A stretch of 53,888 bases of DNA from positions 1-53,888 of IMG/VR virus record IMGVR_UViG_3300030108_000869; one strand, given 5' to 3'. The position numbers were made by a program, and so were the translations under genes. Within the stretch, counting starts at the first letter, position 1. Every line of letters starts with the position of its first letter. The notes beneath the pieces were generated by a model. That model was not told where the DNA came from and ran no database searches. It worked only from the letters and a program-made list of their open reading frames with translations. Below are positions 629-31,808 of the stretch, in pieces. The DNA is from a virus. Taxonomy: Duplodnaviria; Caudoviricetes.

Positions 629-769
629 ATGATACTAACAGGTTTATTTCAAGGAATCGTTACTTTAATGCTGATTGCCGGTACTATTACAAGTGTAGAA
701 TCAACTACATCTCTGGATATTACTGGTCTCAAAGCAAAGAAAGAAGCTATATTCCAAACTAAAGATTAA
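629..769 (+). CDS. small membrane protein, 46 aa (start revised from 572)
   Basis: AGGAG RBS at 617-621, ATG 629, hydrophobic N-terminus. Confidence 0.6.
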   Translation: MILTGLFQGIVTLMLIAGTITSVESTTSLDITGLKAKKEAIFQTKD

Positions 770-792
770 GAGGCTCGCGCCTCTTTTTCAAA
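768..792 (+). promoter_or_regulatory. hairpin element 1, candidate virion-RNAP promoter
   Basis: AAGAGGC-TCGC-GCCTCTT-TTTCAAA; near-identical copy at 3136. Confidence 0.6.
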
Positions 793-2966: not shown

Positions 2967-2984
2967 TCTTTTAGGAGACATTTA
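2967..2984 (-). promoter_or_regulatory. phage RNAP (late) promoter candidate TAAATGTCTCCTAAAAGA
   Basis: one of three copies, each just upstream of a minus-strand RBS. Confidence 0.7.
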
Positions 2985-2991: not shown

Positions 2992-3003
2992 AACCCACAT
3001 CCG
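2992..3003 (+). repeat. 12-bp direct repeat AACCCACATCCG, copy 2
   Basis: identical to 2532-2543. Confidence 0.85.
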
Positions 3004-3014: not shown

Positions 3015-3185
3015 ATGAAAACACATATCAGAATAATAAATCCAATGGCTAGAGCTATGAATGAAGGTAGAAGGCGTCAATATGCGCATAAAATTATTCC
3101 GGATAAAACTAAATATAATCGTAAGAAATCTAAACAAGTGGCTCACGCCACTTTTTCTAATAATATAAATAAAGAAAGGAACTAG
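3015..3185 (+). CDS. small basic protein, 56 aa
   Basis: read manually; GGAG RBS; NPMAR..IIPDKTKYNRK pattern seen in small phage proteins. Confidence 0.6.
   Translation: MKTHIRIINPMARAMNEGRRRQYAHKIIPDKTKYNRKKSKQVAHATFSNNINKERN
3136..3160 (+). promoter_or_regulatory. hairpin element 2, candidate virion-RNAP promoter
   Basis: AAGTGGC-TCAC-GCCACTT-TTTCTAA; compensatory A:T to T:A change relative to copy 1. Confidence 0.6.
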
Positions 3186-3186
3186 T

Positions 3187-5382: not shown

Positions 5383-5391
5383 GGAGTATAT

Positions 5392-10602: not shown

Positions 10603-11039
10603 ACGAAGAAAAACAACGTAGATATGATGAATTATATTTAGATATAGCTACGAGGATAAGTTTAATGTCTCACGATACTGATCACAAGGTAGGATCAGTT
10701 ATCGTTAGAGATAATAATATACTTGCGTTTGGATTTAATGGCATGCCTACAGGTATGAATAATAACTGTAAGAATGCTAATGGTTCTACTAAACAAGAAG
10801 TTATACATGCAGAAGCTAATGCTATCTGCAAGTTAGCGAGGAGCACGGGGAGCTCTGAGGGTGCTACATTATATAGCACTCTCTCCCCTTGTGTGGAATG
10901 CGCTAAGCTCATAATGCAAAGTGGTATAACTAGAATTATATTTAGAGAAACATATAAAGATGAAGCAGGTATTTTACTACTATTAAATAATAATAAAGAA
11001 GTGAAGGGCATAAAATGGAAGGACAACTTAAGTATCTAA
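10599..11039 (+). CDS. dCMP deaminase
   Basis: VGSVIV, GFNG, HAEANAI, SPCVEC. Confidence 0.92.
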   Translation: MNEEKQRRYDELYLDIATRISLMSHDTDHKVGSVIVRDNNILAFGFNGMPTGMNNNCKNANGSTKQEVIHAEANAICKLARSTGSSEGATLYSTLSPCVECAKLIMQSGITRIIFRETYKDEAGILLLLNNNKEVKGIKWKDNLSI

Positions 11040-13204
11040 AGCATAAGATAACAAAATCTAAAGCTCATATAGCTTGTAACCTTTTAAAGGAAACTTCTTT
11101 AGAAGACTTAAAAGCATACTTAGTATTTTCAATGGATACTATTCAACAACATTTCACTCGTAATAGTATGAGAGGAAACAAATCATACCAAGGTGAAGCT
11201 AATCTTACTCATTTAAGTGTAGCTATTGGCACACATATATTAACAGAAATTAATTATAATAATGAAAAAGATGCACCTTGGGATTGGTTTAAACTTCGAG
11301 TTATGATGGGTGATTTATTTTTAGAACCATTCTATCAGACACATCAAATTAATATAGGTAAAACTAGAGATAATACATTTATACCTATAGAATCTCTTGA
11401 TAGAAGTCTTAAAAGAAGCCGAGCACATTATATAGTTGTACCTGAGAAATGGGATTTAGCTATACCAGAAGGCAGCGAAAACTTACTTAAAGGTACAGTA
11501 TTTGAAAAGCCTGAGCCTATAAATAATTTAATGCAACCTACAGGAAGACCTGTAATTAAAGGCTGGACTCTTGATAAAAGTAAACTATTTAAACCTTACT
11601 TAGCTAATAGTTTTATTAAGAGTATGAATGTGCTACAACAAACTGAATGGAAAATTAATAATAATGTTAGGGATATTTTAAATCGTAATAGAACTAAAAT
11701 ACTAAATCAATATAAAAGTTTTCCTAAGAAATATAAATCTAAAATTATAGAGTTTGATTTAACAATGGCTAGATCAAAACTTATTGGTGATAACTCATTT
11801 TATCAATATACTGAAGCAGATTATCGTGGTAGAATTTATTATACTACACCCTTCTTAAACTTTCAGGGTAACGATATAGCAAGAGGTCAAATGCTTTTTG
11901 CTAATGGTAAACAAATGAATGACAGTGGTTTAAGAAGACTTAAAATACATATAGCCTGCGCTTATAATCAAACTTATAATAAAAATAATCTTCCAAACTG
12001 GTTAACTACCGATTACATTCCTTATTTAAATGATGAAGGATTAGATGATATATCTGTAGACAAAATGAGTTTAGAAGATCGTGAAGCATGGACTGATAAT
12101 AATGTTGATATGCTATTTAATTTAGCTGACAAAGAAATTATAGATCCCAATGCTGAAAAACCTATTACTTTATTAGCAAGTATCCTAGAAATTAAAGATG
12201 CTTTAAATAAAGATGAATATATTACTTATCTTCCTATACCTATTGATGGTTCTAATAATGGTTGGCAACACTTATGTGCTATGTCAAAAGACCAGAAAGC
12301 TGGGGAGCTTGTAGGTATTGTACCTCAAGAAATTCAAAAAGATTTTTATGTACAATGTGCTAAAGATTTAATTGAAAGAGTACCAGAATGGTTTGAAGAA
12401 AGACAAATGCCAATGAAACATATACGTAAAGGTATAGCTAAACGCGGTTCAATGACTCGAGCATATAGTGCTGGAGCACAAAAGATTGCAGAGAATATGT
12501 ATCTTGACTGTCATGTGGAAGGATATTTAGATAAGTATAATATTACTAAAGAAGATTGTGAGATGCTTGCAAAGCATTTAATTAAAGCAATTGATAAAGT
12601 TTGTGCAGGTCCATTACAAACTATGAAATTTCTACAGAAGATTGCAGAAGCTGAGATAGCCTCTGAATATGCTAAGTTTATTAAACAAAAAGCAATAAAA
12701 TGGACGACACCATCAGGATTTCCTGTTGTATATGAAGCATTTGTTGAGAATGAATTCAAAGAAAAAGCTATTATAAGCTGTAGTGAACGTGCTATTAAGC
12801 CTACAATAACTAAAGAAGATGGTACTAAAGAAGAAACTGATACTATAAGAATACAACATGTAGGTAAAGAGCCTACAGATAAACCTAAGATCAGATCTTT
12901 TATGTCAGGTATCTCACCTAACTTTGTACATTCAATGGATGCAGCTCATATGGCTAAAGTTATTTCTAAATGGGGGGAAGATTTCGGCGCCGTACATGAT
13001 TCGTTTAGTGTACATGCGTGTGATGTTGATGAGTTATTACAACTTATTAAAGATCAGTTTATAGAAATGTATAGTTACCCTAACTTTTTTGAAGTAATTG
13101 AGCGTATGATTATAACAAACCCTGATAATTTTAATTATAACCAACCTAAGTTAGGAAACTTAGATATTAGAGAGGTAAATAAAAGTGAGTACTTCTTCGC
13201 ATAA
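11015..13204 (+). CDS. single-subunit T7-family RNA polymerase (729 aa)
   Basis: DYRGRIY, PIPIDGSNNGWQH (motif A), RKGIAKRGSMTRAY (B), PNFVHSMDA, VHDSF (C). Confidence 0.95.
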   Translation: MEGQLKYLKHKITKSKAHIACNLLKETSLEDLKAYLVFSMDTIQQHFTRNSMRGNKSYQGEANLTHLSVAIGTHILTEINYNNEKDAPWDWFKLRVMMGDLFLEPFYQTHQINIGKTRDNTFIPIESLDRSLKRSRAHYIVVPEKWDLAIPEGSENLLKGTVFEKPEPINNLMQPTGRPVIKGWTLDKSKLFKPYLANSFIKSMNVLQQTEWKINNNVRDILNRNRTKILNQYKSFPKKYKSKIIEFDLTMARSKLIGDNSFYQYTEADYRGRIYYTTPFLNFQGNDIARGQMLFANGKQMNDSGLRRLKIHIACAYNQTYNKNNLPNWLTTDYIPYLNDEGLDDISVDKMSLEDREAWTDNNVDMLFNLADKEIIDPNAEKPITLLASILEIKDALNKDEYITYLPIPIDGSNNGWQHLCAMSKDQKAGELVGIVPQEIQKDFYVQCAKDLIERVPEWFEERQMPMKHIRKGIAKRGSMTRAYSAGAQKIAENMYLDCHVEGYLDKYNITKEDCEMLAKHLIKAIDKVCAGPLQTMKFLQKIAEAEIASEYAKFIKQKAIKWTTPSGFPVVYEAFVENEFKEKAIISCSERAIKPTITKEDGTKEETDTIRIQHVGKEPTDKPKIRSFMSGISPNFVHSMDAAHMAKVISKWGEDFGAVHDSFSVHACDVDELLQLIKDQFIEMYSYPNFFEVIERMIITNPDNFNYNQPKLGNLDIREVNKSEYFFA

Positions 13205-13445
13205 GAAAGGAATATTACCAGTAAAATTAGGTTTACAACCTGATAATAAAACAGCATTAAAAGAATTAGGAATGGATCCATCTTTAGCAGATCAGATGAC
13301 TGACGAGCAACTAGATGAACATATAATTCAAGTAGAGCACGATCGAATAATTGAATTCTATAACGGCAAAAATATGGAAGAAGAAGGTTTGAAACGTGCA
13401 AGAGACTATAAGAACCAAGCATTAAATAAAGCTAGGTCTTTTTAA
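13185..13445 (+). CDS. hypothetical protein
   Basis: 86 aa, overlaps RNAP end, last gene before terminator. Confidence 0.7.
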   Translation: MSTSSHKKGILPVKLGLQPDNKTALKELGMDPSLADQMTDEQLDEHIIQVEHDRIIEFYNGKNMEEEGLKRARDYKNQALNKARSF

Positions 13446-13447
13446 CC

Positions 13448-13487
13448 AAAAATATCCCCGGGCTTAAAAGCTCGGGGTATTTTTTTT
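13448..13487. terminator. bidirectional intrinsic terminator between the two arms
   Basis: CCCCGGGCTT-AA-AAGCTCGGGG stem flanked by A-run and T-run. Confidence 0.85.
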
Positions 13488-13491
13488 ATTT

Positions 13492-13575
13492 TTAATATCG
13501 GCTAAACAATTTTGAAAAATCTACATAGTCATAATTAAAATCTAAAAATCTTCTCCTAAAAAATTTACTTATCAT
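13492..13575 (-). CDS. 27 aa peptide
   Basis: read manually; ATGA-coupled to upstream ORF. Confidence 0.35.
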   Translation of the reverse strand: MISKFFRRRFLDFNYDYVDFSKLFSRY

Positions 13576-13724
13576 TTTCCATTCTCACATCTACTGCAAT
13601 ATAATATATTTCCACGTTTAGATACACATCCACCACATAAATCATTCACCAAACCTGCGCCAAACATCATAGCTAGCCATAAATATACAGGAATTAAATA
13701 CCAATATGTTTTAAAGTGCCTCAT
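13572..13724 (-). CDS. 50 aa protein with TM helix and CxxC..CxxC
   Basis: read manually; GAGG RBS directly after a promoter motif. Confidence 0.6.
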   Translation of the reverse strand: MRHFKTYWYLIPVYLWLAMMFGAGLVNDLCGGCVSKRGNILYCSRCENGK

Positions 13725-13734
13725 TTGTTTTTCC

Positions 13735-13752
13735 TCTTAAAGGAGACATTTA
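13735..13752 (-). promoter_or_regulatory. phage RNAP (late) promoter candidate TAAATGTCTCCTTTAAGA
   Basis: second copy of the motif. Confidence 0.7.
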
Positions 13753-16700
13753 AGTATTATGATCTACATTAACTGTCTTCATATCGCTATCTACAATACT
13801 TCTTACAGCAGATCTTCTATCACCAATTATTTTTTCAGCACCTTTATTTCTAGCAGCTATTTGCAAAGCACTATCTATTTCTTTTATAATAGTTTTTATT
13901 TCTTTACCAGTAAGTTTATCTAAGTTAGTAGATATTTTTTTATTTAACATTTTATCTAGCTTAGCTTCAATTATTTTAGAGTCAATAAAAGATTCTCTTG
14001 ATATTCTATCATTCCATTCTGCTAAAGTTTCTTGTCTATTCCAATTATATTTACCAAAACCTAGCGCTCTAAGCATTTGTGCAATACCTTTTGAAGTTCC
14101 TGTAGCAGATCTATTAGTTTCACTTACTTCAAATAGCTCACTAATAACTTTAAATTTACTAGCCTCTTCTGTAGTATCAAATATTTCATTATCTGGTATT
14201 TTATTTAAGTCACTTTTAAATTTATTATTATAATATCCTGTAACTTTTTCTAAGAAATCTTCTTTAATTAGTGATTCTTTATGATGTTTATTTGCTTCTT
14301 TCCTAACTATATCTATAGTTCCTAAGTCTGTTAAGAAGGCATCAAAGATAGGTAGCACAAAAGTATTTGAAGCTCCATTTGATTTAGCAGCTTGTTGTAT
14401 TGCTGACCATGAATCTGTAAAAGTTCTGGTAATCATATTAGCATCAAAGCCTTGTGTTAATGCAGGTAATAATCTACCTGTAGTAAAGGCACCAGCAATT
14501 TCTGTTTCACCAAATAATCTTCTTGATGCTCCTGGGTTAGTAAGTGTTTTATATTGTTGAACTGTAACAGGCTTACCATCTAGCTCATATTGTGTAGCAG
14601 CATCTTGTAAAGAATCAGTACCAGCAATTGTAGAAAGTATTCCGGTAGGCTGCTTAATTTTCATTAATGATCCTGATATAGCAGACATAAATGCATTAGC
14701 TTTTATAAGTCTAGCTGCTGCTAATGTTTCAGGATCCATAGTTTCAAATATAGAATCAACTAATATTGTATGTAAAAATTCTACAACCTCATTAGTATTT
14801 AAGTTATGATCTCTAATCATATCTTGAATATCAGAACTCATAAATACTGCATTATCTACATGACCAACTAATGATCCAATTTCTTGACCATATCCCATAG
14901 TCATAGGAGACTTCTTTAAAAAGTTTTCTCTATCATTAATAGCAGCATCAAGTATATCTCTGTATACATCTTGATTTTCATGATTAATATAAGTAACACC
15001 TTGAGTTATTACATTAAACTTTTTTCTCATGGTATCAGCCATAGCATCTCTAAGGTCTGCATATTCACCAGACTCTACCATTTTTTCAAAGTTCTGGTCC
15101 ATTATAATACCAGATCTTTTAGCCATATTAGTACTACCTAATAATACAGCCATAGTAGAAGGACCATGAGTTTTACCATCCATTTCTAATGTAATACTTG
15201 ATTTAAAAGTTTGAGGGCTACTTGGATTTTTTAAGTTAGCTTGTTTAACTCTATGATAATCAGCCAATGCCATTAGATAATCAGCTTGTAATACAGCTTC
15301 ATCTTCATACTTTGCCAGATAAGCTTTTAAACCCTGCGTCATAGGATCTCCGCCAAATTGTTGGCCTATAGCTTGCTTAATACCTCTTACTTCACCAGGA
15401 CTTGTAGCATTTTTAAATCTAGTTAATAGTCCTTGTGCATTTTTTGTTTTGTAATTACGAGTAAGTTTAATTAATTCTTCACCCATTCCTACATATTTCA
15501 TATATAAACTATTAGCAGGATTAGTTTCAGCATTTAATTCTTCTTGTTTAAAAACTCTAATTCTTTCTTCAGGTGTTCTAGCAATACCATATTTCTTTTT
15601 AAAGTTTACGTCCATTCCAGATAACTTTGGATTTTCAAATAAGTGTGCAGACATAGCTTCAATAAAAGTTGTATCTAACTTACCTTGACCTGGAATCCAT
15701 TGATATACATTACCACTACCTACAACACTTCGAATTATTTTTTTAGCCTGAGGATTATATACAGTTTGTTGAGCATGCATTCTTCCGGTTAACGCTTGCA
15801 TAGCAAAGTTTAAATAGTTAGCTTTACCAGAGTATCTTAACATACCTTCAACAATACCTATTGCATTTTCTCTTTCAAGATTAAGAATATTAATAGGATC
15901 ATAAGCCTCTGCTTGTGCTCTTAGTGACGCTGCTTTATTAACTTTACCCTGCTGCTCAGCTCTTTCAGCAGCATTAAATAGTTTTGCTTTTTCACTAACT
16001 AAGTTTTGATATTTTTCTTTACCAATCTTAAACATATTAGCGTAGTCATCTGTTGTAGGATTAGATCTATACATAGGTTCTTGATTATCTTGTACCTTTT
16101 CAGGTCTTCCTGCGTTTGCTAATGCTAACATAAATAACATAACACTAGTAGCTTCTCTACGAGGATCATTTACAAAAGCAACTTTATTCATATTAGACAT
16201 TGCTTCAAATACTTTTGTTGTATCACCAAGATCTCCGATTTGTGTAGTAACTTTTCTAGTATAAGTTTGTCCTTCAAAAACCATTTGACCGTCTTCAGAA
16301 GGCGCTACTCCTGGAGGTACCTCTTGTCTACCAAATAAACCTGAATACATATGATATAAGTTTTCAAATATACCAGAACCTTTTGGCGTTAAAGTAAAAG
16401 TAACTTGTCCATTTTCTAATGAACGTGTAAGCATATCTGAATTAGCTTTATAATATGCTTCTTTAGCAAGATCACCTATTTGTACAAAAACATGATTAGG
16501 AATTGATTGCATATTAGCTGCATAAGTATCAGTAGGTAAACCTCTTTTATCTGCTTGCAATCTTTTATATTGTTTAAATACTTCTCTACCTAACTGAGCG
16601 CGTCCTTGAGCTTTACTATATTTAATTTGTTTAGCTACATTACCCTCAGCTAATTCAGTTTCATCCATAGCTTCAGCACTTTTATTATCTGTAGTATACA

Positions 16701-17445
16701 TACCTTGAATATAAAATTGTTCAGTTACTAAACCCATAGTTGTTAATAAATCGTTATCTAGTTGTACTAAACCTTGATCATCAATTAAACCTGCATCTAA
16801 TACTTCAGGATGATATAGTATAGCTTTATTACTCATTTCAATAGTAGAGTTTCTTAATAGCGGAAACTTAGTAGTTAGCTCAACATCCATTGGATCTTTA
16901 CCAGTTTTTTTAGCTTCATTTGCTCTTCTTCTCGCAGTAAAAGTTGCTTCCCAACTATTAGTATCTGTTAAAGTTTCTCTTTCTAATCTACCAAAAGCTG
17001 TTCCACCAACATTAATACCTTGTAAGTTTTTAGCTCTCATCATAGGACCAACCATAGCTGAATCAGTTCCATTAATAACTGCATCTAATCCATCAAATGT
17101 AACTACACCTTGAGTCTCAGGTATAGACTTAACTCTTTCTCGCTCTCTTTGCTGAGCTTCAATAGATATACTTTCTCCAGGAGCAGGCTTAGTTATTTGA
17201 TCTGGTATTTCAATTTGTGCTGATGGTTCTGCACTACCCTGTTCAGGTTGCTCTGTAATACCGGGATCTTGTAAATCCGCACTCATAACTTTAGCAACAT
17301 CTTGCTGTTTTGTAAAAGTATCTTCAGCAATGGTAGGCATAAACCCTGCTAACGGTAAGTTTTTAGATTTTTCTAATATATCCGTAGGTAAATTGCCCTG
17401 AGTTATTGAAGGGGTTTTTCCTGGTACATTAACATTTATTGCCAT
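13750..17445 (-). CDS. N4-type virion RNA polymerase, stand-alone (about 1231 aa)
   Basis: TGRMH..YNPQ, TLEMDGKTHGP (A), RENFLKKSPMTMGYG (B), TQGFD..VLPIFDAF (C); AAGGAG RBS before MAINVNV. Confidence 0.85.
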   Translation of the reverse strand: MAINVNVPGKTPSITQGNLPTDILEKSKNLPLAGFMPTIAEDTFTKQQDVAKVMSADLQDPGITEQPEQGSAEPSAQIEIPDQITKPAPGESISIEAQQRERERVKSIPETQGVVTFDGLDAVINGTDSAMVGPMMRAKNLQGINVGGTAFGRLERETLTDTNSWEATFTARRRANEAKKTGKDPMDVELTTKFPLLRNSTIEMSNKAILYHPEVLDAGLIDDQGLVQLDNDLLTTMGLVTEQFYIQGMYTTDNKSAEAMDETELAEGNVAKQIKYSKAQGRAQLGREVFKQYKRLQADKRGLPTDTYAANMQSIPNHVFVQIGDLAKEAYYKANSDMLTRSLENGQVTFTLTPKGSGIFENLYHMYSGLFGRQEVPPGVAPSEDGQMVFEGQTYTRKVTTQIGDLGDTTKVFEAMSNMNKVAFVNDPRREATSVMLFMLALANAGRPEKVQDNQEPMYRSNPTTDDYANMFKIGKEKYQNLVSEKAKLFNAAERAEQQGKVNKAASLRAQAEAYDPINILNLERENAIGIVEGMLRYSGKANYLNFAMQALTGRMHAQQTVYNPQAKKIIRSVVGSGNVYQWIPGQGKLDTTFIEAMSAHLFENPKLSGMDVNFKKKYGIARTPEERIRVFKQEELNAETNPANSLYMKYVGMGEELIKLTRNYKTKNAQGLLTRFKNATSPGEVRGIKQAIGQQFGGDPMTQGLKAYLAKYEDEAVLQADYLMALADYHRVKQANLKNPSSPQTFKSSITLEMDGKTHGPSTMAVLLGSTNMAKRSGIIMDQNFEKMVESGEYADLRDAMADTMRKKFNVITQGVTYINHENQDVYRDILDAAINDRENFLKKSPMTMGYGQEIGSLVGHVDNAVFMSSDIQDMIRDHNLNTNEVVEFLHTILVDSIFETMDPETLAAARLIKANAFMSAISGSLMKIKQPTGILSTIAGTDSLQDAATQYELDGKPVTVQQYKTLTNPGASRRLFGETEIAGAFTTGRLLPALTQGFDANMITRTFTDSWSAIQQAAKSNGASNTFVLPIFDAFLTDLGTIDIVRKEANKHHKESLIKEDFLEKVTGYYNNKFKSDLNKIPDNEIFDTTEEASKFKVISELFEVSETNRSATGTSKGIAQMLRALGFGKYNWNRQETLAEWNDRISRESFIDSKIIEAKLDKMLNKKISTNLDKLTGKEIKTIIKEIDSALQIAARNKGAEKIIGDRRSAVRSIVDSDMKTVNVDHNT

Positions 17446-17455: not shown

Positions 17456-20400
17456 TTATGCAAATAGCTCGGCTATATTTCTGTTAAGCTGGTTAACAGG
17501 TCCGATAATAGGCATAGTCTTTAGTATTTTATAAATACCTGTTTCAGTTTTCCCTTCTATAACTTGACCAACACCTGTAGCAGCTCTAGTTATATTTGAT
17601 AACGCAGCTGCTTCTCCTGATACTGTTTGAAATAATTCTTCTACCATATTACTTGATGATGTTTCATATATTGGAAAGAAGAAATTTAAAGGTCTTTCAG
17701 CTACACCAATTAATCCTGATGCACCTATACCTCTTTGAATTACTTCAGCTCTATCTAAATACGGTGTAGCCATACCATATTTTAATAGATCTTTTAAATA
17801 CTGTGATACAAATCCTAGCATAACCATTGTTGTCATAACTGCAAAAGCATTATACTTCATTGCAGGTGTACCACGTTTAACGTAGTCACCCCACATTCTA
17901 GGTATTTGGTTAGCTGTAAATGTAGCTATAAAACCTTGGAACTGTGTAAACAAAGCTATATGTGGATTATTATAAAACAATGGTCTGTTAGCTGTTCCAG
18001 GTAATGCAATTGCTTCATTAACAAAATTATACTGAGCATGCATAAATATTCTATCTAGCTCTGCATCTGTTTGTGATCTTCTTAATCTATAATCTTGTAT
18101 GCTTTCATTTGGCTTTACACCAACTGGTTGATTAGATAATTCTAAAAGTCTACCAACATTAATACCTAAGTTTCTTAATTGTTCTTCTGCTTCTTGTACT
18201 TCATTAGTTTTAGGTTCACCACTTTGCCTAGCAATTTGTATAGTATTTAAGTGATCTAAAATAAAACTGTCTGCAATACTAGCTCTTATATTACGTGTGT
18301 AATCTGTCCATTGCTGCAAACCAATAACTCTAAAGTATTTATCTAATAAATATCTTGAAGCATAAGTATTTTCAGTGGCACCTGTAGTTTGTGATGCACC
18401 AACATCCCAATCAAAGAATCCTAACTTCTGTAAGCGAGCTTGTCTTTTTTCTTTATTAAGTCTTGCTTGTGTAGAGTTAATACCAGGATTTGTTATACCA
18501 CTCCATAGTGCTTGTGCAAATTCTTTAGCAGCTGTAGCTATTACTGTACGTATTTGTTCAGGAGTTAAAGCTCTCATAGTCATCATAAATTCTACAAAAG
18601 ATGATACAGTTGCTAATGGTAATCCTGCAAGTGTAGTCCATACTAATATTTTCTTTTGTATATTTTCTAATGTTTTATTTTCTATTCTTTTATAGTTACC
18701 TGATTCAGCTTGTAAGTAATTTCTTAAGCCTGCTGCTATTCTGTTAGCTCTTTCTTCAGATAAACCCTCAGCTTTAGCTTCTCTTAATAGCTGTGCAAAA
18801 ACTTCATTATTATCACCAAGAAACTTTTCATATGCTATAAATCTTGTAGCTGATTTAGCTGCATTAGATATGTTTACAAAATGATCTTCTTCCATAAATT
18901 GATCAAATCTAGTACGCTCTGATAAACCTAATGATCTTCTTTTAAATTGTGCGGGCACATGCTTACCTTTACCAACTTGAAATATACTTTCTTGATCTAC
19001 CATTTCATTATTATCAAGTATATCATTAGTTAAATCAGTAGCACTATCTAAAGTAAATCCAAATTCATCTTGTAATGCTTTAATAAATTCATTCTTTTTC
19101 TTTTCGATTTTAGATTTATTTAAAGATTTATATTTTAATAAATAGTTTTTAGTAAATCTTTCTTTACCATTATTATCTCTTAGTTTACTCTGTCTACCTG
19201 TACTAGTACCATCACTATATTCTTCTTCAGCTTTAACTTGATCATTAAATAATTTATTACCAAGTTTATTTATTTTTACATAGTATTCTCTAAGAAACTT
19301 TTCATTTGCTTTTAAATCAAACTCACCTTCAAAATCAGTTGGTAAAGTATTCCAATCTATATTCATTATTTTAGTAGGATCACCTTTAGAAACTAACCAT
19401 CTACCAAAAGCATATATTATTTTTGAATCTCTTATAGGATCTCTAGTTGATTTACCTAAAGCCTGAGCAACTTGAGAAGGTGTCATAGCCATGTTTTTAT
19501 ATTCTGCTAATTGAAGATGTTTGTATTCTTCAAATGTTTCACCCGAATGTATTCTATGCAAGTAACCATTTACTATTGAACCTAATTTTCTTATAGCTTT
19601 ACTTTGAAAAGAATCTTTCCAAAATAAATGAGGCATAGCACCTTTCCATAAGAATGGTAATTCTTTAGCAGTTTCTTTTACACTTGACCATATATCTCTA
19701 TCTTTAGCTTGCCTTTCACCAGCATCTGCCATAGTATTAAAATCATCAGACGGTGATAGTGGTCTAGCCCTAGCTTTTTTCTTAGCTTCTTCTGCTATAT
19801 CTTTATTACTTCTTTGTATACCATTATTTAAAGCCATTTCTTCTTCAGCCCATTTACCTTCTTGAGATAAACGTTTATCTTCAGCTGGCGCTTGTCTTAC
19901 AGCTACATCAGCCCATGCTCCCGCATTATAAGCTGTTCCAGGTACAGAAAATCCTGCACCTAAAGTTCCTCCTGCGATATAAGCATTAATTAATCTATTA
20001 GATAATTCAACAGAATCAAAAGGCTTATCACTACCATATACTGCTGCCATATAACCAGTAAGTTCCTGACCTAATTCAGTACTTGATTCTATACCAAATC
20101 CTCTAGCAGCATTCTTTGAAAAATTCTTTAATAAATTACCAAACTTTAATTGATCTTTTGCAACCTTTACTACATCACCTGCTAACTTTGCAGATTCTTT
20201 TCGAGTCATATTACCTATGGCAACTTTAGCCATATCATCAGTTGCTCCTGGGTTAGCTTGCTTGTATGCTTGTATCATATCATCTCTATACTTAGAATCT
20301 AATAAGGTACCCTTAGCACCTCCCATAAGTCCTTTAAGACCTAATCTATCTAAGACAGACATAGTAACACCAGCAGCTACAGCTAGGCTAGCATTCTTAT

Positions 20401-21553
20401 CTTCACCTTCCATTTCATTCCAGTTTTGTCCTGCATATACTGAAACAGGTGCAAGCATACTAACACCAACATTAGATAACGCAGCAACTCCTGTAGCACT
20501 TGCTAAAGATGTACCACCAGTTACTGGGGCTAATGCAGCACCACCTATAGTTACACCCATATAAGGTAAAGCCATAGCTGTCATGTTTCCCATATACTCA
20601 AAGAAACCGCCCACACCATCTATATCCCATTCATTTCCTATAACATTACCATCATTATCTAACTTATATTTTAGTATATTATTTTTTACTTCAGGTTTGT
20701 TAGCAAGATATTTGTGTTGTCTCTTAATACCTTCTTGACCAAGTTCTTCTAACCAATTAATACCAGTTTTTTCGCCAATCATATTAGCCATACCATAGGC
20801 ACCTTCAATAACACCAGTCCATCCTGTGTCAAAACTTTCAGACCAAGGATGAAGTGCTTTGTTTTGAAGTGTTCTATCGCTATGTCTTTTCTGAACTAAA
20901 CTATTACTATAATCTGCTGCTCTTCTTTTTCTTAAAGCATACATAGCATTTGATTCACCAGGTTGTCTTTCAGCATTTAATCTAGCTAATGTTTGTTCAT
21001 CAAGTGCTACTCTTTTAAATTCAGTTTCATAAAACTTTTCACTGTCTGCCATTTGATTAATAGCTATTCTTGCTTTATCAAACTGATCTAAGCTTTCATC
21101 TTGTAAATCAGGTGTACCTTCAGCTCTAAGCATTGCACCTATTTGTGCTGCTTGTATTTCTTCAGGTGAACTAAACCTATTTAGTTTACCTATACCATAT
21201 GAATTTAAAGTTTCTACAAAATCTCTACCATCTGGATCAGTAATTCTAACTAACTGTCTAGTACCAGTGGCATCCATCATAGGTGTACCATCTGGATTTG
21301 TAAGATAATGTACGTTATTAAAATCAAATTGTTCTGCTAGGTTTCTAATTTGTTTAGTAGCTTCCCAACCACCAGCAGTTCCAGGTTTTAAATTACCATC
21401 TATCATACGCATTATTTCGGGTGCACTCAAACCTTGTAGTCTAAGAAGATTACCTTCTTTATTTATAAGAGTATCACCATCAATAAAGCGATGTTCCATA
21501 TTATCTATAGGTGGTGGTTTATCAAAACCTGACACATCTATATTAATAGCCAT
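17456..21553 (-). CDS. large internal virion/ejection protein (gp16-like) with N-terminal SNase-like domain
   Basis: 1365 aa; IDGDT..RLQGLSAPE; C-terminal LFTQFQGF and hydrophobic helices. Confidence 0.7.
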   Translation of the reverse strand: MAINIDVSGFDKPPPIDNMEHRFIDGDTLINKEGNLLRLQGLSAPEIMRMIDGNLKPGTAGGWEATKQIRNLAEQFDFNNVHYLTNPDGTPMMDATGTRQLVRITDPDGRDFVETLNSYGIGKLNRFSSPEEIQAAQIGAMLRAEGTPDLQDESLDQFDKARIAINQMADSEKFYETEFKRVALDEQTLARLNAERQPGESNAMYALRKRRAADYSNSLVQKRHSDRTLQNKALHPWSESFDTGWTGVIEGAYGMANMIGEKTGINWLEELGQEGIKRQHKYLANKPEVKNNILKYKLDNDGNVIGNEWDIDGVGGFFEYMGNMTAMALPYMGVTIGGAALAPVTGGTSLASATGVAALSNVGVSMLAPVSVYAGQNWNEMEGEDKNASLAVAAGVTMSVLDRLGLKGLMGGAKGTLLDSKYRDDMIQAYKQANPGATDDMAKVAIGNMTRKESAKLAGDVVKVAKDQLKFGNLLKNFSKNAARGFGIESSTELGQELTGYMAAVYGSDKPFDSVELSNRLINAYIAGGTLGAGFSVPGTAYNAGAWADVAVRQAPAEDKRLSQEGKWAEEEMALNNGIQRSNKDIAEEAKKKARARPLSPSDDFNTMADAGERQAKDRDIWSSVKETAKELPFLWKGAMPHLFWKDSFQSKAIRKLGSIVNGYLHRIHSGETFEEYKHLQLAEYKNMAMTPSQVAQALGKSTRDPIRDSKIIYAFGRWLVSKGDPTKIMNIDWNTLPTDFEGEFDLKANEKFLREYYVKINKLGNKLFNDQVKAEEEYSDGTSTGRQSKLRDNNGKERFTKNYLLKYKSLNKSKIEKKKNEFIKALQDEFGFTLDSATDLTNDILDNNEMVDQESIFQVGKGKHVPAQFKRRSLGLSERTRFDQFMEEDHFVNISNAAKSATRFIAYEKFLGDNNEVFAQLLREAKAEGLSEERANRIAAGLRNYLQAESGNYKRIENKTLENIQKKILVWTTLAGLPLATVSSFVEFMMTMRALTPEQIRTVIATAAKEFAQALWSGITNPGINSTQARLNKEKRQARLQKLGFFDWDVGASQTTGATENTYASRYLLDKYFRVIGLQQWTDYTRNIRASIADSFILDHLNTIQIARQSGEPKTNEVQEAEEQLRNLGINVGRLLELSNQPVGVKPNESIQDYRLRRSQTDAELDRIFMHAQYNFVNEAIALPGTANRPLFYNNPHIALFTQFQGFIATFTANQIPRMWGDYVKRGTPAMKYNAFAVMTTMVMLGFVSQYLKDLLKYGMATPYLDRAEVIQRGIGASGLIGVAERPLNFFFPIYETSSSNMVEELFQTVSGEAAALSNITRAATGVGQVIEGKTETGIYKILKTMPIIGPVNQLNRNIAELFA

Positions 21554-24500
21554 TAGTTAACTCCACTTAGTTTATTAGTAATATCAATTACAAATAATGC
21601 ATACGGTGTTAGTCCTTCATTTTCAGGTTTCTTTGCAGCTTCTTCATATTCTTTTCGCCATAATTTACCTGTGTCTGGATTAATACCTTTAGGTTTACCA
21701 TCTTTAGTTGTGCCACGGTTATTCCAAATATCGGCTGCTTCATTATAAAATTGATTAATATCCTGAGATACTGATTTAACTCTATCATTAATATTCATTA
21801 GAGTATCTGTATCTACTTGAACAACTTCATCTCCAACTTTAGCTTGAGTTAAACCTGGAACCATTATATCTAATCTTTGTTTTATAGTAGCTTCTTCTAA
21901 GTAAGGTATAAGTGATTCAGCTTTAGAAGGTGGCTTACCATCTGGAGGATTAGTAAAGTTTTCAGCAGCAGCTATAACTGCCATTTTTAAACCAGGACCT
22001 AATCTTTGTAATGATATACCATTTTCTTGTGCCCAAAAAGCAATTTCTTCAGCTGAATTAGCAGGTGTTAAGTTAGTATAGTCCTCATATATTTTAGCTT
22101 TTGTTGTTTTATTAACACCAGTTAGCTTACGTGCATGCTTATTTAAAAGCTCTTCCATTTGATCTTTAATATTAGGAATCTTTTTTCTAGCTGCCTCATT
22201 AAATTGATCACTACCTTTTACTTTACTACCATCTTCACTATAGCCTGCACCTATTCTGCTCTTACCATTTATATCAAATGACCAGTAAGTAAGATCACCT
22301 TCACCTGTTTTAATTTTAAACTGATAAGCCATTCTACCAGAAGGCCCAGTGTCTTTACCAAACCATGGTTTTCTTTCACCAGTACTTCTAACCTTTGCAC
22401 CTTTAGGTATTAATGTGCTATAGTCACCTCGAGAATCTTTAAATGCTTGTAAAGATATAGGCTCAAACTTATCTGCATTATCAGCTATATACTTATCTAT
22501 TTGAGCTGTCTTAGCATCTACTCTTTTAAGATACTGTTTAGCAACATAGTTAATTGAGCTGTTATGGTCATAACCTAATGCTCTTGAACCTAAGTAAACA
22601 GCAGCAGCCCTTCCAATTTCTTTAGCATCTATAAGATCACCAAATAAAAACTTCATAGCATCTTTAGCTTTTTGTACATTAGGATTCTTTGGATCATTAG
22701 CTCCAGATGTATTTATAATACTTGCATTATTAGCTAAGTCGGTAGAAATCTTATTAGCTGTTGCATCATCTATTTTACTAGCAGCATTATTTAAATTAGC
22801 TTCAGATTCATTAGCCTCAGCTTTATTTATTATATTAGTTATTTTAGCTGACTCAGTTTTTTCGTATTCTGCTTTAAGAGCATTTAGTCTTTCTTGAGCT
22901 AAATCTTTTTCAGATTTAGTAGCATCTTTATCTGTTAATATTTTTTCATTTTTTTGTATTGCCATTATAAGATCTGCATCCTTAACCTTTGCTTTAAATA
23001 AAGGTTCCGGACCTTCTCCAGGTGCTACAGCTAATTTAGTAGCTAGCATTGATTCTTCTTCAGATAATTTATTTTCAAAATCTAATATTTCTTTTCTAAG
23101 TCGTGCTACTTTTTCTGCATACTTAGGATCATTAGGATTTAAATTAGTAATTGATTTATCTCTATCTTTTATTCGCGATTTTAATCCTTTAATTGAGCTT
23201 CTTACAGCACCTATCTCACGCTTATCATTTTTTGCAAAAGCATCATCATAAATATTTCTTCTTGGAAGATTTATTATATCACCAGTATCATCATCATACA
23301 TATTTTCATCTACTGCCTCATATGGTGGTGGCATTTCCATACCTAATTCTTCCATACCTAATCCTTGAGGATCATATGAATAATTTCCTACAAATGTTTG
23401 TTGATCTAATGGTAACATATCAGATACATCTTCTTCAAAACCTGTAACTTTAGTATTACTTCTACCAATAGGATCTGGAATATTACTTTCCATAACCATA
23501 TCATCAGCACCAAAAGGTATAGGTTTAATTATTTCCGGTACACTTGGAGAATCTTCAAATGATATAGTTGTTGAATCATCTTCAGGTACTTGAACAGAAC
23601 TTAACGGATTATCATTTAATATTTCATTAGCTTTAGCTACATTTTGTTGTGAATCAAATATAAGCTTCATTATATCATCATCCATTGCAGAAGTAGTTTG
23701 ACCTGTAGTTCCATATATTTTACCACCAGGATCTAAGTGCACTGCACCACCTTCTTTAAAAGGATTTACTTTTTCTGGCTTAGTAAACTTAAAACCAATA
23801 TCATTTGGATCTATAAAATCTTTTACACTTTCAACAATGCTAGTAGCTTTTTCTTTAATACCACTAAAGGGATTAGGAATGTTAAGACTAAATCCATCTG
23901 AACTGGGAGGCACTTGTATTCCTGCCTCTCTATACTTATCATAAACTGAAGGATCACCAAATACTTTATTATCTATTAATTCTTTTATTTCTTCAGCTTT
24001 ATTAGCTCTTCTATCGGCATGAGGAATACCTGGTTTTAAATGTTTATTCATTATATCTAAAGCTATAGCTTTAGCATCTTTATTAGCAAATGACTCTTGT
24101 AAATTTTCAGCATTTGTTTTACCTATCCTAAAACCACTTTCATTTTTAGGATGAGGTACAGCATCTTTATTATATATACTTTGTACAAAATAATCTAACT
24201 GAGAAGCCATAGAATCTTTTTTATTATTTGCTTTTAAATAATTTAAATAAGGTTTCTTTTGTTCATCAAATTGAAATAGTCCCATACCTGGGCCCATTTG
24301 ATCACCAGTATTTTCATTTTGTCTAGTAGTGTACTCATAAGTATAACCAGTTTCTACACCTATATTACCCATAATACCCGCAATAGCATCATCAGTTAAC
24401 TGGGGATAGTTTTCTTTTAAGTAATTATAAATATCAGATTGTCTGCTTCTTTTATTTTTAAATTTCTCTCCAGCTATAACATCTTTACTAGGCTTAGGTA

Positions 24501-24792
24501 CAGGCATGCCAACTTCTGCATACTCAGGTTTCATATTTTGTATTTCTCTACCGTGGTCATTCATCTTTTTAATTATAGGACCGTATATATCTGTAGCTTC
24601 TTTGTTTACTACAAACTCACCAGGAGTAAGCCAAGCTGGTACAGTGTCAGTACCTTTAGGTTCTCCAGGATGATCATACATAGGTATTGAGGAAGTCATA
24701 GGAGGAACTTCCATTTGTCCTTCTGTAATATCAAACTCGAAAGACCTCATATTCCCATAGCGATCTTTTTGTGTAAACTTCTTTAACTTCAT
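21553..24792 (-). CDS. internal virion/ejection protein with phage tail lysozyme domain
   Basis: AIAGIMGNIGVETG..GMGLFQF lysozyme motif; GTDTVPAWLTPGEFVV. Confidence 0.75.
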   Translation of the reverse strand: MKLKKFTQKDRYGNMRSFEFDITEGQMEVPPMTSSIPMYDHPGEPKGTDTVPAWLTPGEFVVNKEATDIYGPIIKKMNDHGREIQNMKPEYAEVGMPVPKPSKDVIAGEKFKNKRSRQSDIYNYLKENYPQLTDDAIAGIMGNIGVETGYTYEYTTRQNENTGDQMGPGMGLFQFDEQKKPYLNYLKANNKKDSMASQLDYFVQSIYNKDAVPHPKNESGFRIGKTNAENLQESFANKDAKAIALDIMNKHLKPGIPHADRRANKAEEIKELIDNKVFGDPSVYDKYREAGIQVPPSSDGFSLNIPNPFSGIKEKATSIVESVKDFIDPNDIGFKFTKPEKVNPFKEGGAVHLDPGGKIYGTTGQTTSAMDDDIMKLIFDSQQNVAKANEILNDNPLSSVQVPEDDSTTISFEDSPSVPEIIKPIPFGADDMVMESNIPDPIGRSNTKVTGFEEDVSDMLPLDQQTFVGNYSYDPQGLGMEELGMEMPPPYEAVDENMYDDDTGDIINLPRRNIYDDAFAKNDKREIGAVRSSIKGLKSRIKDRDKSITNLNPNDPKYAEKVARLRKEILDFENKLSEEESMLATKLAVAPGEGPEPLFKAKVKDADLIMAIQKNEKILTDKDATKSEKDLAQERLNALKAEYEKTESAKITNIINKAEANESEANLNNAASKIDDATANKISTDLANNASIINTSGANDPKNPNVQKAKDAMKFLFGDLIDAKEIGRAAAVYLGSRALGYDHNSSINYVAKQYLKRVDAKTAQIDKYIADNADKFEPISLQAFKDSRGDYSTLIPKGAKVRSTGERKPWFGKDTGPSGRMAYQFKIKTGEGDLTYWSFDINGKSRIGAGYSEDGSKVKGSDQFNEAARKKIPNIKDQMEELLNKHARKLTGVNKTTKAKIYEDYTNLTPANSAEEIAFWAQENGISLQRLGPGLKMAVIAAAENFTNPPDGKPPSKAESLIPYLEEATIKQRLDIMVPGLTQAKVGDEVVQVDTDTLMNINDRVKSVSQDINQFYNEAADIWNNRGTTKDGKPKGINPDTGKLWRKEYEEAAKKPENEGLTPYALFVIDITNKLSGVN

Positions 24793-31790: not shown

Positions 31791-31808
31791 TGTTATAGGG
31801 GACATTTA
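31791..31808 (-). promoter_or_regulatory. phage RNAP (late) promoter candidate TAAATGTCCCCTATAACA
   Basis: third copy of the motif, upstream of the nrdJ RBS. Confidence 0.7.

What the first reader, a model, noticed from the sequence alone, without database searches (positions are those of the whole stretch)
11015..17445. Possible host-RNAP-independent cascade of two single-subunit polymerases
Seen: two RNAP genes converge near the central terminator, and two unrelated promoter-like classes split by strand (hairpins on the early strand, linear motif on the late strand). The 729-aa RNAP is about 150 aa shorter than T7 RNAP and ends the replication operon, as in phiKMV. Knowledge: T7 needs host RNAP early and N4 needs it late. 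Inference: injected vRNAP makes early/replication RNA including the second RNAP, which makes late RNA, so host RNAP might be dispensable.
Basis: inference. Interest (0 to 1): 0.85.

Follow-up and report, generated by a model that had tools for sequence, protein, structure and literature searches.

The report
Marine phage with two own RNA polymerases
This uncultured marine phage encodes a T7-type RNA polymerase and a hidden, compact version of coliphage N4's injected polymerase, each apparently with its own promoter type, so it may transcribe its genome with little or no help from the host enzyme.

Summary
Both genes are RNA polymerases. The 729-aa ORF (11015-13204, +) matches Pfam RNA_pol (E 2e-59). 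The convergent 1231-aa ORF (13750-17445, -) has no Pfam, PHROG or PDB sequence hit. Its AlphaFold model (pLDDT 85) matches only T7, N4 and mitochondrial RNAPs (Foldseek E down to 5e-13). Its family profile aligns specifically to N4 mini-vRNAP (hhalign E 4e-8; T7-like control E 0.34), with all catalytic motifs invariant.

The pair is convergent in 64 of 70 related viral contigs. The other six are cut too short to tell.

Both promoter-like classes are real. Hairpins resembling N4 promoter P2 lie on the early strand, and their loop type changes with the fast-evolving vRNAP. A T7-style linear motif is conserved like the T7-type RNAP. It heads the late operon in 5 of 5 complete relatives, though one copy there faces the early strand.

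A third early-strand motif (AACCnnCATCCG) is unexplained. Virion packaging and independence from host RNAP remain inference. The contig lacks the terL-early control region.

The scan had already flagged this compact vRNAP on other DNA (e1-3505648, e1-6239824). Four literature searches found no description of it.

The parts
11015..13204 (+). T7-type single-subunit RNA polymerase, 729 aa (P0002), near the end of the rightward replication operon
   Evidence: Pfam PF00940 E 2.2e-59. phrog_414 E 1.1e-98. Closest isolate is CRP-7 gp30, 35% identity. It is 75-92% identical in most related contigs.
13185..13445 (+). 86-aa ORF, last ORF of the rightward operon
   Evidence: ORF list only; not studied further.
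13456..13477 (.). Central bidirectional hairpin terminator between the convergent arms
   Evidence: 9-bp stem with 7 GC pairs and a T-run on the + strand. The reverse strand also carries a T-run. RNA dG -16.0.
13572..13724 (-). 50-aa ORF after the vRNAP gene, preceded by a linear-motif copy
13736..13749 (-). Linear T7-style promoter-like motif ATGTCTCCTTTAAG
   Evidence: 3 exact matches, 0 in shuffles. The same site is conserved in L002-L004, L007 and L015.
13750..17445 (-). Compact N4-type RNA polymerase (candidate virion RNAP), 1231 aa (P0003), last large gene of the leftward late operon
   Evidence: AF2 pLDDT 85.3, pTM 0.84. Foldseek PDB best hits: T7 RNAP 3e3j E 4.8e-13 and N4 mini-vRNAP 2po4 E 7.5e-12. 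hhalign to an N4-like vRNAP alignment gives Prob 94.9, E 4.4e-8. R555, D756, K844, Y852, G853 and D1035 are invariant in 36 of 36 sequences.
17456..21553 (-). 1365-aa virion protein immediately upstream of the vRNAP gene (10 nt between its stop and the vRNAP ATG at 17445)
   Evidence: phrog_6958 'virion structural protein' E 1.1e-19. Conserved next to the vRNAP gene in the relatives listed. No fold match.
21553..24792 (-). 1079-aa protein with a phage tail lysozyme domain, first gene of the three-gene block
   Evidence: PF18013 E 1.3e-15. Its N-terminus is conserved in relatives.
768..785 (+). Hairpin AAGAGGC-TCGC-GCCTCTT followed by TTTC, resembling N4 promoter P2
   Evidence: N4 P2 read from the N4 genome: AAGAAGC-TCC-GCTTCTT ttgg.
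3136..3153 (+). Hairpin AAGTGGC-TCAC-GCCACTT followed by TTTC, 34 nt before the first gene of the replication operon (3187)
   Evidence: In L084 the same hairpin lies in a divergent intergenic region with no upstream + strand gene.
2968..2981 (-). Linear motif ATGTCTCCTAAAAG upstream of the 138-aa minus-strand ORF (2548-2964) inside the early arm
   Evidence: Equivalent copies in L041, L044, L045 and at G001 21406.
31792..31805 (-). Linear motif ATGTCCCCTATAAC upstream of the ribonucleotide reductase gene (29998-31767) and the tail/ejection genes behind it
   Evidence: RNR assignment: phrog_84 E 6.9e-133. An identical 14-mer occurs at G001 48907.
2992..3003 (+). Third motif AACCCACATCCG (also 2532-2543; variant AACCTTCATCCG at 916-927), function unknown
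   Evidence: Three + strand copies and none on the - strand. Conserved upstream of the small ORF in relatives. G001 has 3 copies and G002 has 2 in their early 4 kb, all on the early strand; absent from G003-G005.

Best explanation
The phage runs a two-polymerase transcription cascade built from two distant branches of the single-subunit RNAP family.

Shown:
- The 1231-aa protein is a catalytically intact N4-vRNAP-type polymerase about the size of N4's 1106-aa mini-vRNAP. It lacks N4's roughly 1000-aa N-terminal and 1400-aa C-terminal domains.
- It is encoded as the last large gene of the late operon, behind two virion proteins. This is the position of gp50 in N4.

Inferred:
- It is made late, packaged, and injected with the DNA. 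It then starts at short hairpin promoters in the early arm. In this genome these are at 768 and at 3136, the second directly before the replication operon.
- That operon ends with the 729-aa T7-type RNAP.
- The T7-type RNAP reads the duplex promoters TTAAATGTCYCCTWWAAG. These head the late operon upstream of terL in complete relatives. In the window they precede the RNR-tail-ejection-vRNAP block, the 138-aa ORF and the 50-aa ORF.

If both assignments hold, every gene block has a phage-polymerase promoter, and host RNAP could be dispensable. That last step is untested.
For: Polymerase identities.

Specific kinship to N4 vRNAP rather than T7:
- hhalign of the 36-sequence family against 8 Schitoviridae polymerase domains gives E 4.4e-8.
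- It aligns R555 to N4 R424, D756 to D559, K844/Y852 to K670/Y678, and D1035 to D951.
- Controls: family vs T7-like E 0.34; N4-like vs T7-like E 0.26.
- The motif ExDGxxxG, used as the N4-vRNAP signature in PMC10654107 (passage), is invariant here.

Synteny with N4: gp50 is the last gene of the leftward operon at the convergence point, behind gp51 and gp52. The vRNAP is the third member of the ejection operon in the Schitoviridae (PMC11445570 passages).

The pair is conserved. The T7-type RNAP lies convergent downstream in 64 of 70 loci. The other 6 have less than 500 nt downstream.

Hairpins:
- Of the window/G001 type (loop TNNC followed by a T-run and C), 18 hits lie on the early strand and 0 on the other strand in 183 kb. 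This is about 11 distinct sites in 4 lineages.
- Each complete relative except G002 (one copy of the shared TNNC type) has its own family with a fixed loop and varying stems. G001 has 5 (TAAC/TATC), G003 has 4 (ACAAG, no T-run), G004 has 4 (ARAA), G005 has 5 (ATYC).
- All lie in the early arm or just before the replication operon. The roughly 20-kb loci covering late and replication genes held none, apart from the two sites before the replication operon.
- Most are too weak to act as terminators (RNA dG -1 to -5.5, against -14 to -24 for the window's true terminators).

Co-variation: within each subgroup the T7-type RNAPs are 77-88% identical and share one linear motif. The vRNAPs are only 32-48% identical, and the hairpin loops differ, except that G001 and G002 share TAAC.

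Linear motif: 3 exact copies in the window against 0 in 100 shuffles. Each complete relative has 3-4 copies, with 0 for the reversed control. In 5 of 5, one copy lies 30-210 nt upstream of terL or the late operon head.
Against: - No direct evidence shows that the 1231-aa protein is in virions.
- No transcription start sites are available. The only RNA run holding the phage consists of contigs and shows nothing about starts.
- The polymerase-promoter assignments rest on co-variation across six genomes.
- In this window the two hairpins are moderately stable and are followed by T-runs (dG about -9.4), so they could also terminate transcription.
- The 3136 hairpin is absent at that place in several relatives with an 87%-identical T7-type RNAP (L081-L083, L086-L090).
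- One linear-motif copy points into the early strand in all 5 complete relatives.
- A third conserved early-strand motif, AACCnnCATCCG, has no assigned reader.
- The closest cultured phage, CRP-7, has a same-sized gene (gp33) in the same place with no detectable similarity to this family.
- The contig lacks the terL-early control region.
Confidence: 0.6

Rival explanations
1. An N4-style three-polymerase programme. The compact vRNAP makes early RNA and the T7-type RNAP makes only a middle class (RNR, the 138-aa ORF, part of the late arm). Host RNAP is still required for some class, for instance structural genes, the very first genes, or units marked by AACCnnCATCCG.
For: In N4, the only characterised system with a vRNAP, host sigma70 RNAP makes late RNA (PMC4496689 passages). 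Two of the three window copies of the linear motif precede non-structural or unassigned genes (RNR; the 138-aa ORF). An unassigned third motif exists on the early strand. The control region is missing from this contig.
Against: The linear motif sits directly upstream of terL or the late operon head in 5 of 5 complete relatives. The RNR copy also precedes the tail, ejection and vRNAP genes with almost no intergenic gaps. Sigma70-like sites in 1-14000 are not enriched (75 found against 68.0 +/- 7.8 in shuffles). That result neither shows nor excludes host promoters.
Confidence: 0.28
2. A phiKMV-like programme with a non-injected second polymerase. Host RNAP reads the early and replication arm, the hairpins are terminators or attenuators, and the T7-type RNAP makes late RNA. 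The 1231-aa polymerase has another role, such as a DNA-pulling ejection motor without promoter-specific early transcription, or replication priming.
For: The T7-type RNAP sits at the end of the replication genes, as recalled for phiKMV. The window's two hairpins carry T-runs and have dG about -9.4. No virion data exist.
Against: The hairpin families have conserved loops, AT-only stems as weak as dG -1 to -5.5, and no T-run in G003. In L084 a hairpin lies in a divergent intergenic region with nothing upstream to terminate. The window hairpins closely resemble N4 promoter P2. A polymerase made from the late operon with fully conserved catalytic residues has no obvious use unless it is carried into the next cell.
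Confidence: 0.09
3. The 1231-aa protein is a structural or ejection protein that keeps a polymerase fold but no longer polymerises.
For: It evolves fast (24-47% identity, against 75-92% for the T7-type RNAP in the same contigs), as ejection proteins do.
Against: The residues aligned to N4 R424, D559, K670, Y678 and D951 are invariant in 36 of 36 sequences despite a mean column identity of 32%.
Confidence: 0.03

Closest known systems
Coliphage N4 (Schitoviridae): virion RNAP gp50, especially its polymerase domain (mini-vRNAP, residues 998-2103; PDB 2PO4, 3C3L, 9PNT)
   Same: Same polymerase branch: hhalign E 4.4e-8, with TxxGR, A (ExDGxTxGP), B and C (IFDx) motifs collinear. Same gene position, last in the leftward late operon at the convergence point and behind virion/ejection genes. 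Convergent two-arm genome. Hairpin elements in the early arm that resemble P2. A second, T7-related phage RNAP is also present.
   Different: The protein is 1231 aa, not 3500, so it has no gp50-type NTD or CTD. The neighbouring 1365-aa protein shows no similarity to gp50 by BLASTP, and its model gave no fold hit. The hairpin loops have 4-5 nt, not 3. The second RNAP is a single 729-aa chain at the end of the replication operon, not the early gp15+gp16 heterodimer. A T7-style promoter heads the late operon, where N4 uses host RNAP. The genome is about 54-58 kb, not 70 kb.
Roseobacter phage CRP-7 (MK613349), the closest cultured phage
   Same: Same layout: DNAP, exonuclease, primase and RNAP on the + strand, then three convergent genes of 1235, 1368 and 1223 aa. 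RNAP 35% identical and portal 54% identical.
   Different: CRP-7 gp33-35 show no detectable similarity to the vRNAP family (hmmsearch; hhalign). The passages read from its paper (PMC6918029) name only ORF30 as an RNAP. Whether gp33 is a still more diverged polymerase could not be tested, because proteins known only from that record cannot be folded here.
T7/phiKMV-type phages (Autographiviridae)
   Same: A single-chain PF00940 RNAP. The promoter-like motif has T7 architecture as recalled: an AT-rich 5' part, a specific core, then TATAA-G. The RNAP gene lies behind the replication genes, as recalled for phiKMV.
   Different: The genes sit on two convergent arms, not one strand. The portal groups with CRP-7, pelagiphage HTVC106P, LUZ24-like and N4-like phages. 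A second, N4-type polymerase is present. The RNAP is 729 aa, against 883 for T7 (recalled).
phiKZ-like and AR9-like jumbo phages (recalled, not checked here)
   Same: The concept is the same: a packaged phage RNAP for early genes plus a second phage RNAP for later genes, giving infection independent of host RNAP.
   Different: Those enzymes are multisubunit (beta/beta'-like) in genomes of over 200 kb. Here both are single-subunit enzymes in a genome of about 55 kb.
Earlier notes of this scan on other DNA (e1-3505648, e1-6239824)
   Same: The same kind of cryptic 1216-1325-aa N4-like polymerase ends the ejection operon, paired with a 729-aa T7-like RNAP.
   Different: Those are different genomes. 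The promoter co-variation analysis and the terL-upstream promoter were worked out here.

Membership tests
T7-type single-subunit RNAP (Pfam PF00940), for the 729-aa protein | Significant match to the RNA_pol profile above the curated cut-off | tested here: met
   201.9 bits against a cut-off of 22, E 2.2e-59. phrog_414 E 1.1e-98.
T7-type single-subunit RNAP (Pfam PF00940), for the 729-aa protein | Catalytic motifs A (DG..G.QH), B (R...K.......YG/S) and C (HDS) | tested here: met
   PIPIDGSNNGWQH, RKGIAKRGSMTRAYSAG and AVHDSFS were read in the translation. They are invariant in 9 of 9 aligned relatives. The motif names are recalled.
N4-type virion RNAP (gp50 polymerase domain), for the 1231-aa protein | Right-hand single-subunit RNAP fold | tested here: met
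   The model (pLDDT 85.3) gave 73 PDB matches at E<=1e-3. All listed top rows are T7, N4 or mitochondrial RNAPs. In BFVD, 48 matches at E<=1e-3; every named one is an RNAP or vRNAP, apart from one 'Uncharacterized protein' and two 'Coil containing protein' rows.
N4-type virion RNAP (gp50 polymerase domain), for the 1231-aa protein | TxxGR, A, B and C motifs collinear with N4 R424, D559, K670/Y678 and D951 | tested here: met
   hhalign. The residues are invariant in 36 of 36 sequences. The presence of the motifs in mini-vRNAP comes from PMC4496689 passages; the residue numbers are recalled and match the alignment offsets.
N4-type virion RNAP (gp50 polymerase domain), for the 1231-aa protein | Closer in sequence to N4 vRNAP than to T7-like RNAPs | tested here: met
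   E 4.4e-8 against E 0.34 for the same query profile. ExDGxxxG signature present.
N4-type virion RNAP (gp50 polymerase domain), for the 1231-aa protein | Giant polyprotein of about 2800-3800 aa with an injection NTD and an encapsidation CTD | tested here: not met
   The protein is 1231 aa and relatives are 1162-1571 aa. The length filter of PMC10654107 (<2500 aa removed) would exclude it.
N4-type virion RNAP (gp50 polymerase domain), for the 1231-aa protein | Present in the virion and injected | not testable with these tools
   Only positional evidence exists: it is the last gene of the late operon, behind two virion proteins.
N4-type virion RNAP (gp50 polymerase domain), for the 1231-aa protein | Initiates at extruded hairpin promoters in the early region | tested here: inconclusive
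   Hairpin families with fixed loops and varying stems exist, restricted to the early strand and arm and changing with the vRNAP clade. No start-site or binding data are available.
Schitoviridae (N4-like phages) as a taxon | Genome of about 70-80 kb, giant vRNAP, two-subunit RNAPII | tested here: not met
   The contig is 53.9 kb and complete relatives are 55-60 kb. The vRNAP is compact and the T7-type RNAP is a single chain.
Autographiviridae (T7/phiKMV-like) as a taxon | All genes on one strand, with a T7-like structural module | tested here: not met
   The arms are convergent. The portal's nearest named relatives are CRP-7, HTVC106P, LUZ24-like and N4-like phages.

The most novel reading that the evidence does not exclude
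A widespread group of roughly 55-kb marine podophages transcribes its whole genome with two single-subunit polymerases and needs no host RNAP. An injected, naturally minimal N4-type enzyme carries none of gp50's flanking domains, and its hairpin-promoter specificity is re-invented in each lineage. A conserved T7-type enzyme makes late RNA. This would be the first host-RNAP-independent programme built only from single-subunit RNAPs. It would also be a natural library of orthogonal hairpin-promoter polymerases.
Probability: 0.35. Interest if true: 0.88.

Novelty: new variant of a known kind. Interest (0 to 1): 0.76.

Why it matters
N4's injected polymerase has been treated as a hallmark of one family and defined partly by its giant size. 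Here the same polymerase branch occurs as a free-standing enzyme of about 1200 aa that Pfam, PHROGs and PDB sequence searches all miss. It was found in 70 related viral contigs and 47 protein clusters from marine metagenomes.

This shows that the polymerase module can be packaged, or at least encoded in the ejection operon, without gp50's NTD and CTD. That bears on how vRNAP is loaded and ejected.

Pairing it with a conserved T7-type RNAP whose promoter heads the late operon predicts a fully phage-autonomous transcription programme. This is testable with two recombinant proteins and short DNA templates, even without a cultured host.

The lineage-specific hairpin families offer a natural experiment on how hairpin-promoter specificity evolves. 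They could also supply orthogonal transcription parts.

Tried and rejected
Library searches on the 1237/1231-aa protein gave nothing:
- Pfam returned only a sub-threshold GLEYA hit.
- PHROGs at E<=10 returned none.
- PDB sequences with phmmer and with the family profile returned none.
- tblastn against 50,697 phage records returned none.

VIA-align libraries were not available.

Generic repeat finding and exact k-mer counting did not reveal the promoter motifs.

The sigma70 scan of 1-14000 found 75 sites against 68.0 +/- 7.8 in shuffles, which is not informative.

CRP-7 gp33, gp34 and gp35 showed no similarity to the vRNAP family.

'Split gp50' idea: the 1365-aa neighbour gave no significant BLASTP alignment to N4 gp50. 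Its AF2 model was poor (pLDDT 61.2, pTM 0.55) and gave no PDB match at E<=0.001. The idea therefore has no support, and a poor model cannot refute it.

Shared N-terminus (MAINIDVSG / MAINVNVPG) as a packaging tag: it is seen in the window and L003 only. It is not conserved in the other 20 relatives inspected, so I dropped it as general evidence.

RNA evidence: one metatranscriptome (X1) holds 5% of the sampled words, as contigs only. When laid, 8 of its 12 pieces were listed, covering 98-634, 1063-1210, 1390-1541, 6307-6592 and 17614-18335. Contigs show no starts or strands, and DNA carry-over cannot be excluded, so nothing is concluded.

Treating the contig as circular: the terL frame runs only about 20 codons into position 1 without a start codon. 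Relatives show that the real terL start, the divergent promoter pair and up to about 1.9 kb of early genes are missing from this record.

Literature searches found no paper describing a compact vRNAP or this polymerase pair.

Of the 47 proteins, I aligned 36. I left out 11: P0011, P0013, P0019, P0021, P0026, P0028, P0031, P0033, P0035, P0043 and P0048. These are near-duplicates or shorter pieces.

Full report
WHAT THE WINDOW IS. The 53,888-base window is the whole record of a low-GC (about 33%) podophage with two convergent arms.

The + arm (130 to 13445) carries:
- an Enc34-type SSB-like gene and tRNA-His
- thymidylate synthase, a MazG-like protein, family-A DNA polymerase, 5'-3' exonuclease, primase-helicase and dCMP deaminase
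- a 729-aa RNAP.

The - arm carries, in order:
- terminase (cut by the contig end), portal, scaffold, major capsid
- a 2127-aa fibre protein
- ribonucleotide reductase and tail/virion proteins
- three large genes of 1079, 1365 and 1231 aa, ending at 13750.

The closest cultured phage is Roseobacter phage CRP-7, with RNAP 35% and portal 54% identical and the same layout. The passages I read from its paper name only one RNAP (PMC6918029).

THE TWO POLYMERASES. The 729-aa protein is an ordinary T7-type RNAP (PF00940 E 2.2e-59; phrog_414 E 1.1e-98).

The 1231-aa protein starts at the ATG at 17445 and is invisible to Pfam, PHROGs, PDB sequence searches and tblastn against phage records. It has 47 metagenomic relatives, none with a Pfam domain or an informative name. 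An alignment of 36 of them (mean column identity 32%) keeps a few blocks invariant: QALTGR, ExDGxTHG, LKxSPMTxGYGQ and DAxxxD.

An AlphaFold model of residues 105-1237 built on that alignment is confident (pLDDT 85.3, pTM 0.84). Foldseek against the PDB gives 73 matches at E<=1e-3, and the listed top rows are all single-subunit RNAPs:
- T7 RNAP 3e3j, E 4.8e-13
- N4 mini-vRNAP 2po4, E 7.5e-12
- full-length N4 gp50 9pnt
- yeast and human mitochondrial RNAPs.

BFVD gives 48 matches, and the named ones are phage RNAPs and N4-like vRNAPs, apart from three rows with uninformative names.

WHICH BRANCH. I built an alignment of eight Schitoviridae polymerase domains from N4 plus seven others. Profile-profile comparison with the new family gives Prob 94.9, E 4.4e-8 over 219 columns. 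It aligns GRMxxQQxxYNPQAxKxxR with N4's GRMQMLGKYNPQSAKLVR, and ExDGxTHGP with N4's EADGVTNGP. In the extended alignment, motifs B and C (IFDA against IFDG) also line up.

By offset these residues are N4 mini-vRNAP R424, D559, K670/Y678 and D951. The numbers are recalled. The presence and function of the motifs come from PMC4496689.

The same query profile against T7-type RNAPs gives E 0.34, and N4-like against T7-like gives E 0.26. The enzyme is therefore an N4-vRNAP-type polymerase domain standing alone. It is about the size of the 1106-aa mini-vRNAP, plus a low-complexity N-terminal stretch of about 100 aa.

A metagenomic survey of N4-like viruses used ExDGxxxG as the vRNAP signature but discarded everything under 2500 aa (PMC10654107 passage). 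That filter would have removed this family.

CONTEXT. In N4 the vRNAP gene gp50 is the last gene of the leftward late operon at the convergence point, behind gp51 and gp52. In Schitoviridae these three form the ejection operon (PMC11445570 passages). Here the polymerase occupies the same place, behind a 1365-aa protein (phrog 'virion structural protein', E 1e-19) and a 1079-aa protein with a tail-lysozyme domain (PF18013, E 1.3e-15). That block is conserved in the relatives inspected.

Across 70 related IMG/VR loci, tblastn finds the T7-type RNAP convergent downstream in 64. The six without it have less than 500 nt of downstream sequence. The T7-type RNAP is 75-92% identical in most loci (about 50% best-segment in a distant subgroup). 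The vRNAP is only 24-47% identical outside four near-identical contigs. It evolves like an ejection protein while keeping its active site.

PROMOTER CLASS 1: HAIRPINS. The window has two hairpins of one design, both on the + strand:
- AAGAGGC-TCGC-GCCTCTT-TTTC at 768
- AAGTGGC-TCAC-GCCACTT-TTTC at 3136.

They differ by a compensatory pair. The second lies 34 nt before the replication operon. N4 promoter P2, read from the N4 genome, is AAGAAGC-TCC-GCTTCTT-TTGG, 13 nt before the gp2 start codon. In N4 the run of A in the template after the stem acts as a ruler for the start site (PMC4496689). The T-run here is therefore expected for a promoter of this kind and does not by itself indicate a terminator.

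In early-region loci of relatives, the strict pattern (stem of at least 6, loop TNNC, T-run then C) occurs 18 times on the early strand and never on the other strand in 183 kb. Several of these loci overlap or are near-identical, so this amounts to about 11 distinct sites in four lineages.

The complete relatives carry these hairpin families:
- G001: five copies, loop TAAC/TATC, AT-only stems
- G002: one copy of the same type (AGAGGC-TAAC-GCCTCT), so it does not add an independent loop class
- G003: four copies, loop ACAAG, no T-run
- G004: four copies, loop A(A/G)AA
- G005: five copies, loop AT(C/T)C.

All lie in the early 4 kb or just before the replication operon. The roughly 20-kb loci covering late and replication genes held no other copy.

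Most are far too weak to be intrinsic terminators (RNA dG -1.1 to -5.5, against -13.9 to -23.9 for the window's three clear terminators). The window's own two are intermediate (-9.5 and -9.3). In L084 the hairpin sits between divergent genes, where there is nothing to terminate.

Against a fixed role: several relatives lack a hairpin at the 3136-equivalent site.

PROMOTER CLASS 2: LINEAR MOTIF. AYGTCYCCTWWAAS occurs three times in the window, all on the - strand and all 20-40 nt upstream of a minus-strand start codon:
- at 2968-2981, before the 138-aa ORF
- at 13736-13749, before the 50-aa ORF
- at 31792-31805, before RNR and everything behind it.

None of 100 shuffles gave a single match. With its flanks it reads (A/T)TTAAATGTCYCCT(A/T)(A/T)AAG. 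As recalled, this has the build of T7-group promoters.

The window lacks the head of the late operon, because terL is cut at 53888. Five complete relatives have it. G001 and G002 have four copies each, with none for the reversed control. One copy lies about 30 nt upstream of terL, and a second divergent copy lies 24-30 nt away, pointing into the early arm. The distant subgroup G003-G005 has the related TGYCTCCTAKTAGAG, 3-4 copies each (control 0). Again one copy heads the late operon and one lies on the early strand.

WHO READS WHAT (INFERENCE). Within each subgroup the T7-type RNAPs are 77-88% identical and the linear motif is shared. The vRNAPs are 32-48% identical, and the hairpin loops differ from genome to genome, except that G001 and G002 share TAAC. 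This co-variation assigns hairpins to the N4-type enzyme and the linear motif to the T7-type enzyme. The assignment also matches what each enzyme family does in N4 and T7 (PMC4496689).

A polymerase encoded in the late operon can act on early-arm promoters only if it is carried into the next cell, which is why I infer packaging.

WHAT REMAINS OPEN. Packaging, start sites and rifampicin resistance are all untested. The one RNA run that holds the phage is contigs only.

A third motif, AACCnnCATCCG, occurs three times on the + strand of the window's early arm (916-927, 2532-2543, 2992-3003) and never on the - strand. It is conserved in subgroup A relatives and absent from the early 4 kb of G003-G005. 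It has no assigned reader. It could mark a host-RNAP or regulator step, or an RNA-level signal.

The early-strand copy of the linear motif in complete relatives means the strand split seen in the window is partly an effect of the truncated contig. CRP-7's gene in the same position is not detectably related.

VERDICT. The second ORF is a genuine N4-type polymerase, and both promoter classes are supported by relatives. The cascade is the best reading (about 0.6). Full host-RNAP independence is plausible but unproven (about 0.35).

This is a new variant of a known kind: an N4-like injected-polymerase strategy in a compact, unfused form, combined with a T7-type late polymerase. Four literature searches found no description of it. 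The same compact polymerase had already been noted by this scan on other genomes.

Noticed in passing
window 916-927, 2532-2543, 2992-3003 (+): Third conserved motif AACC(N)(N)CATCCG, found only on the early strand. Two of the three copies end exactly 11 nt before a start codon (939 and 3015). It is conserved in subgroup A relatives (G001 3 copies, G002 2 copies in their early 4 kb) and absent from the early 4 kb of G003-G005. Its reader is unknown.
   Followed up: partly
window 3015-3185 (+): A small basic ORF (56 aa, MKTHIRIINP...YNRKK) is conserved at protein level in many relatives just upstream of the replication operon, but is deleted in L084. The 3136 hairpin lies in its 3' end.
   Followed up: partly
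window 53666-53888 and position 1: The record is not complete. terL lacks its first ~19 codons. Compared with the complete relative G001, the divergent promoter pair and up to about 1.9 kb of early genes left of the SSB-like gene are missing.
   Followed up: yes
window 29998-31767 (-): A ribonucleotide reductase gene (phrog_84, E 7e-133) sits among structural genes on the late strand with its own linear-motif copy. CRP-7 also carries RNR genes within its late arm.
   Followed up: partly
window 17456-21553 (-), N-terminal ~60 residues: The 1365-aa virion protein and its relatives keep an H-x-F-x-D-x-D-T-L motif near the N-terminus (A4 consensus). From memory it resembles a thermonuclease motif. 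No Pfam hit supports this.
   Followed up: no
window 790-865: A metatranscriptome contig (run X1) replaces 74 bases just after the 768 hairpin with 16 other letters. This points to a strain variant in that intergenic region.
   Followed up: no
window 2291-2530 (+): tRNA-His(GTG) at 2291-2364 is followed by a GC-richer untranslated stretch and a very strong terminator (RNA dG -23.9).
   Followed up: no
window 4014-11039 (+): Thymidylate-synthase homologue, MazG-like pyrophosphatase and dCMP deaminase lie in one operon with the DNA polymerase.
   Followed up: no
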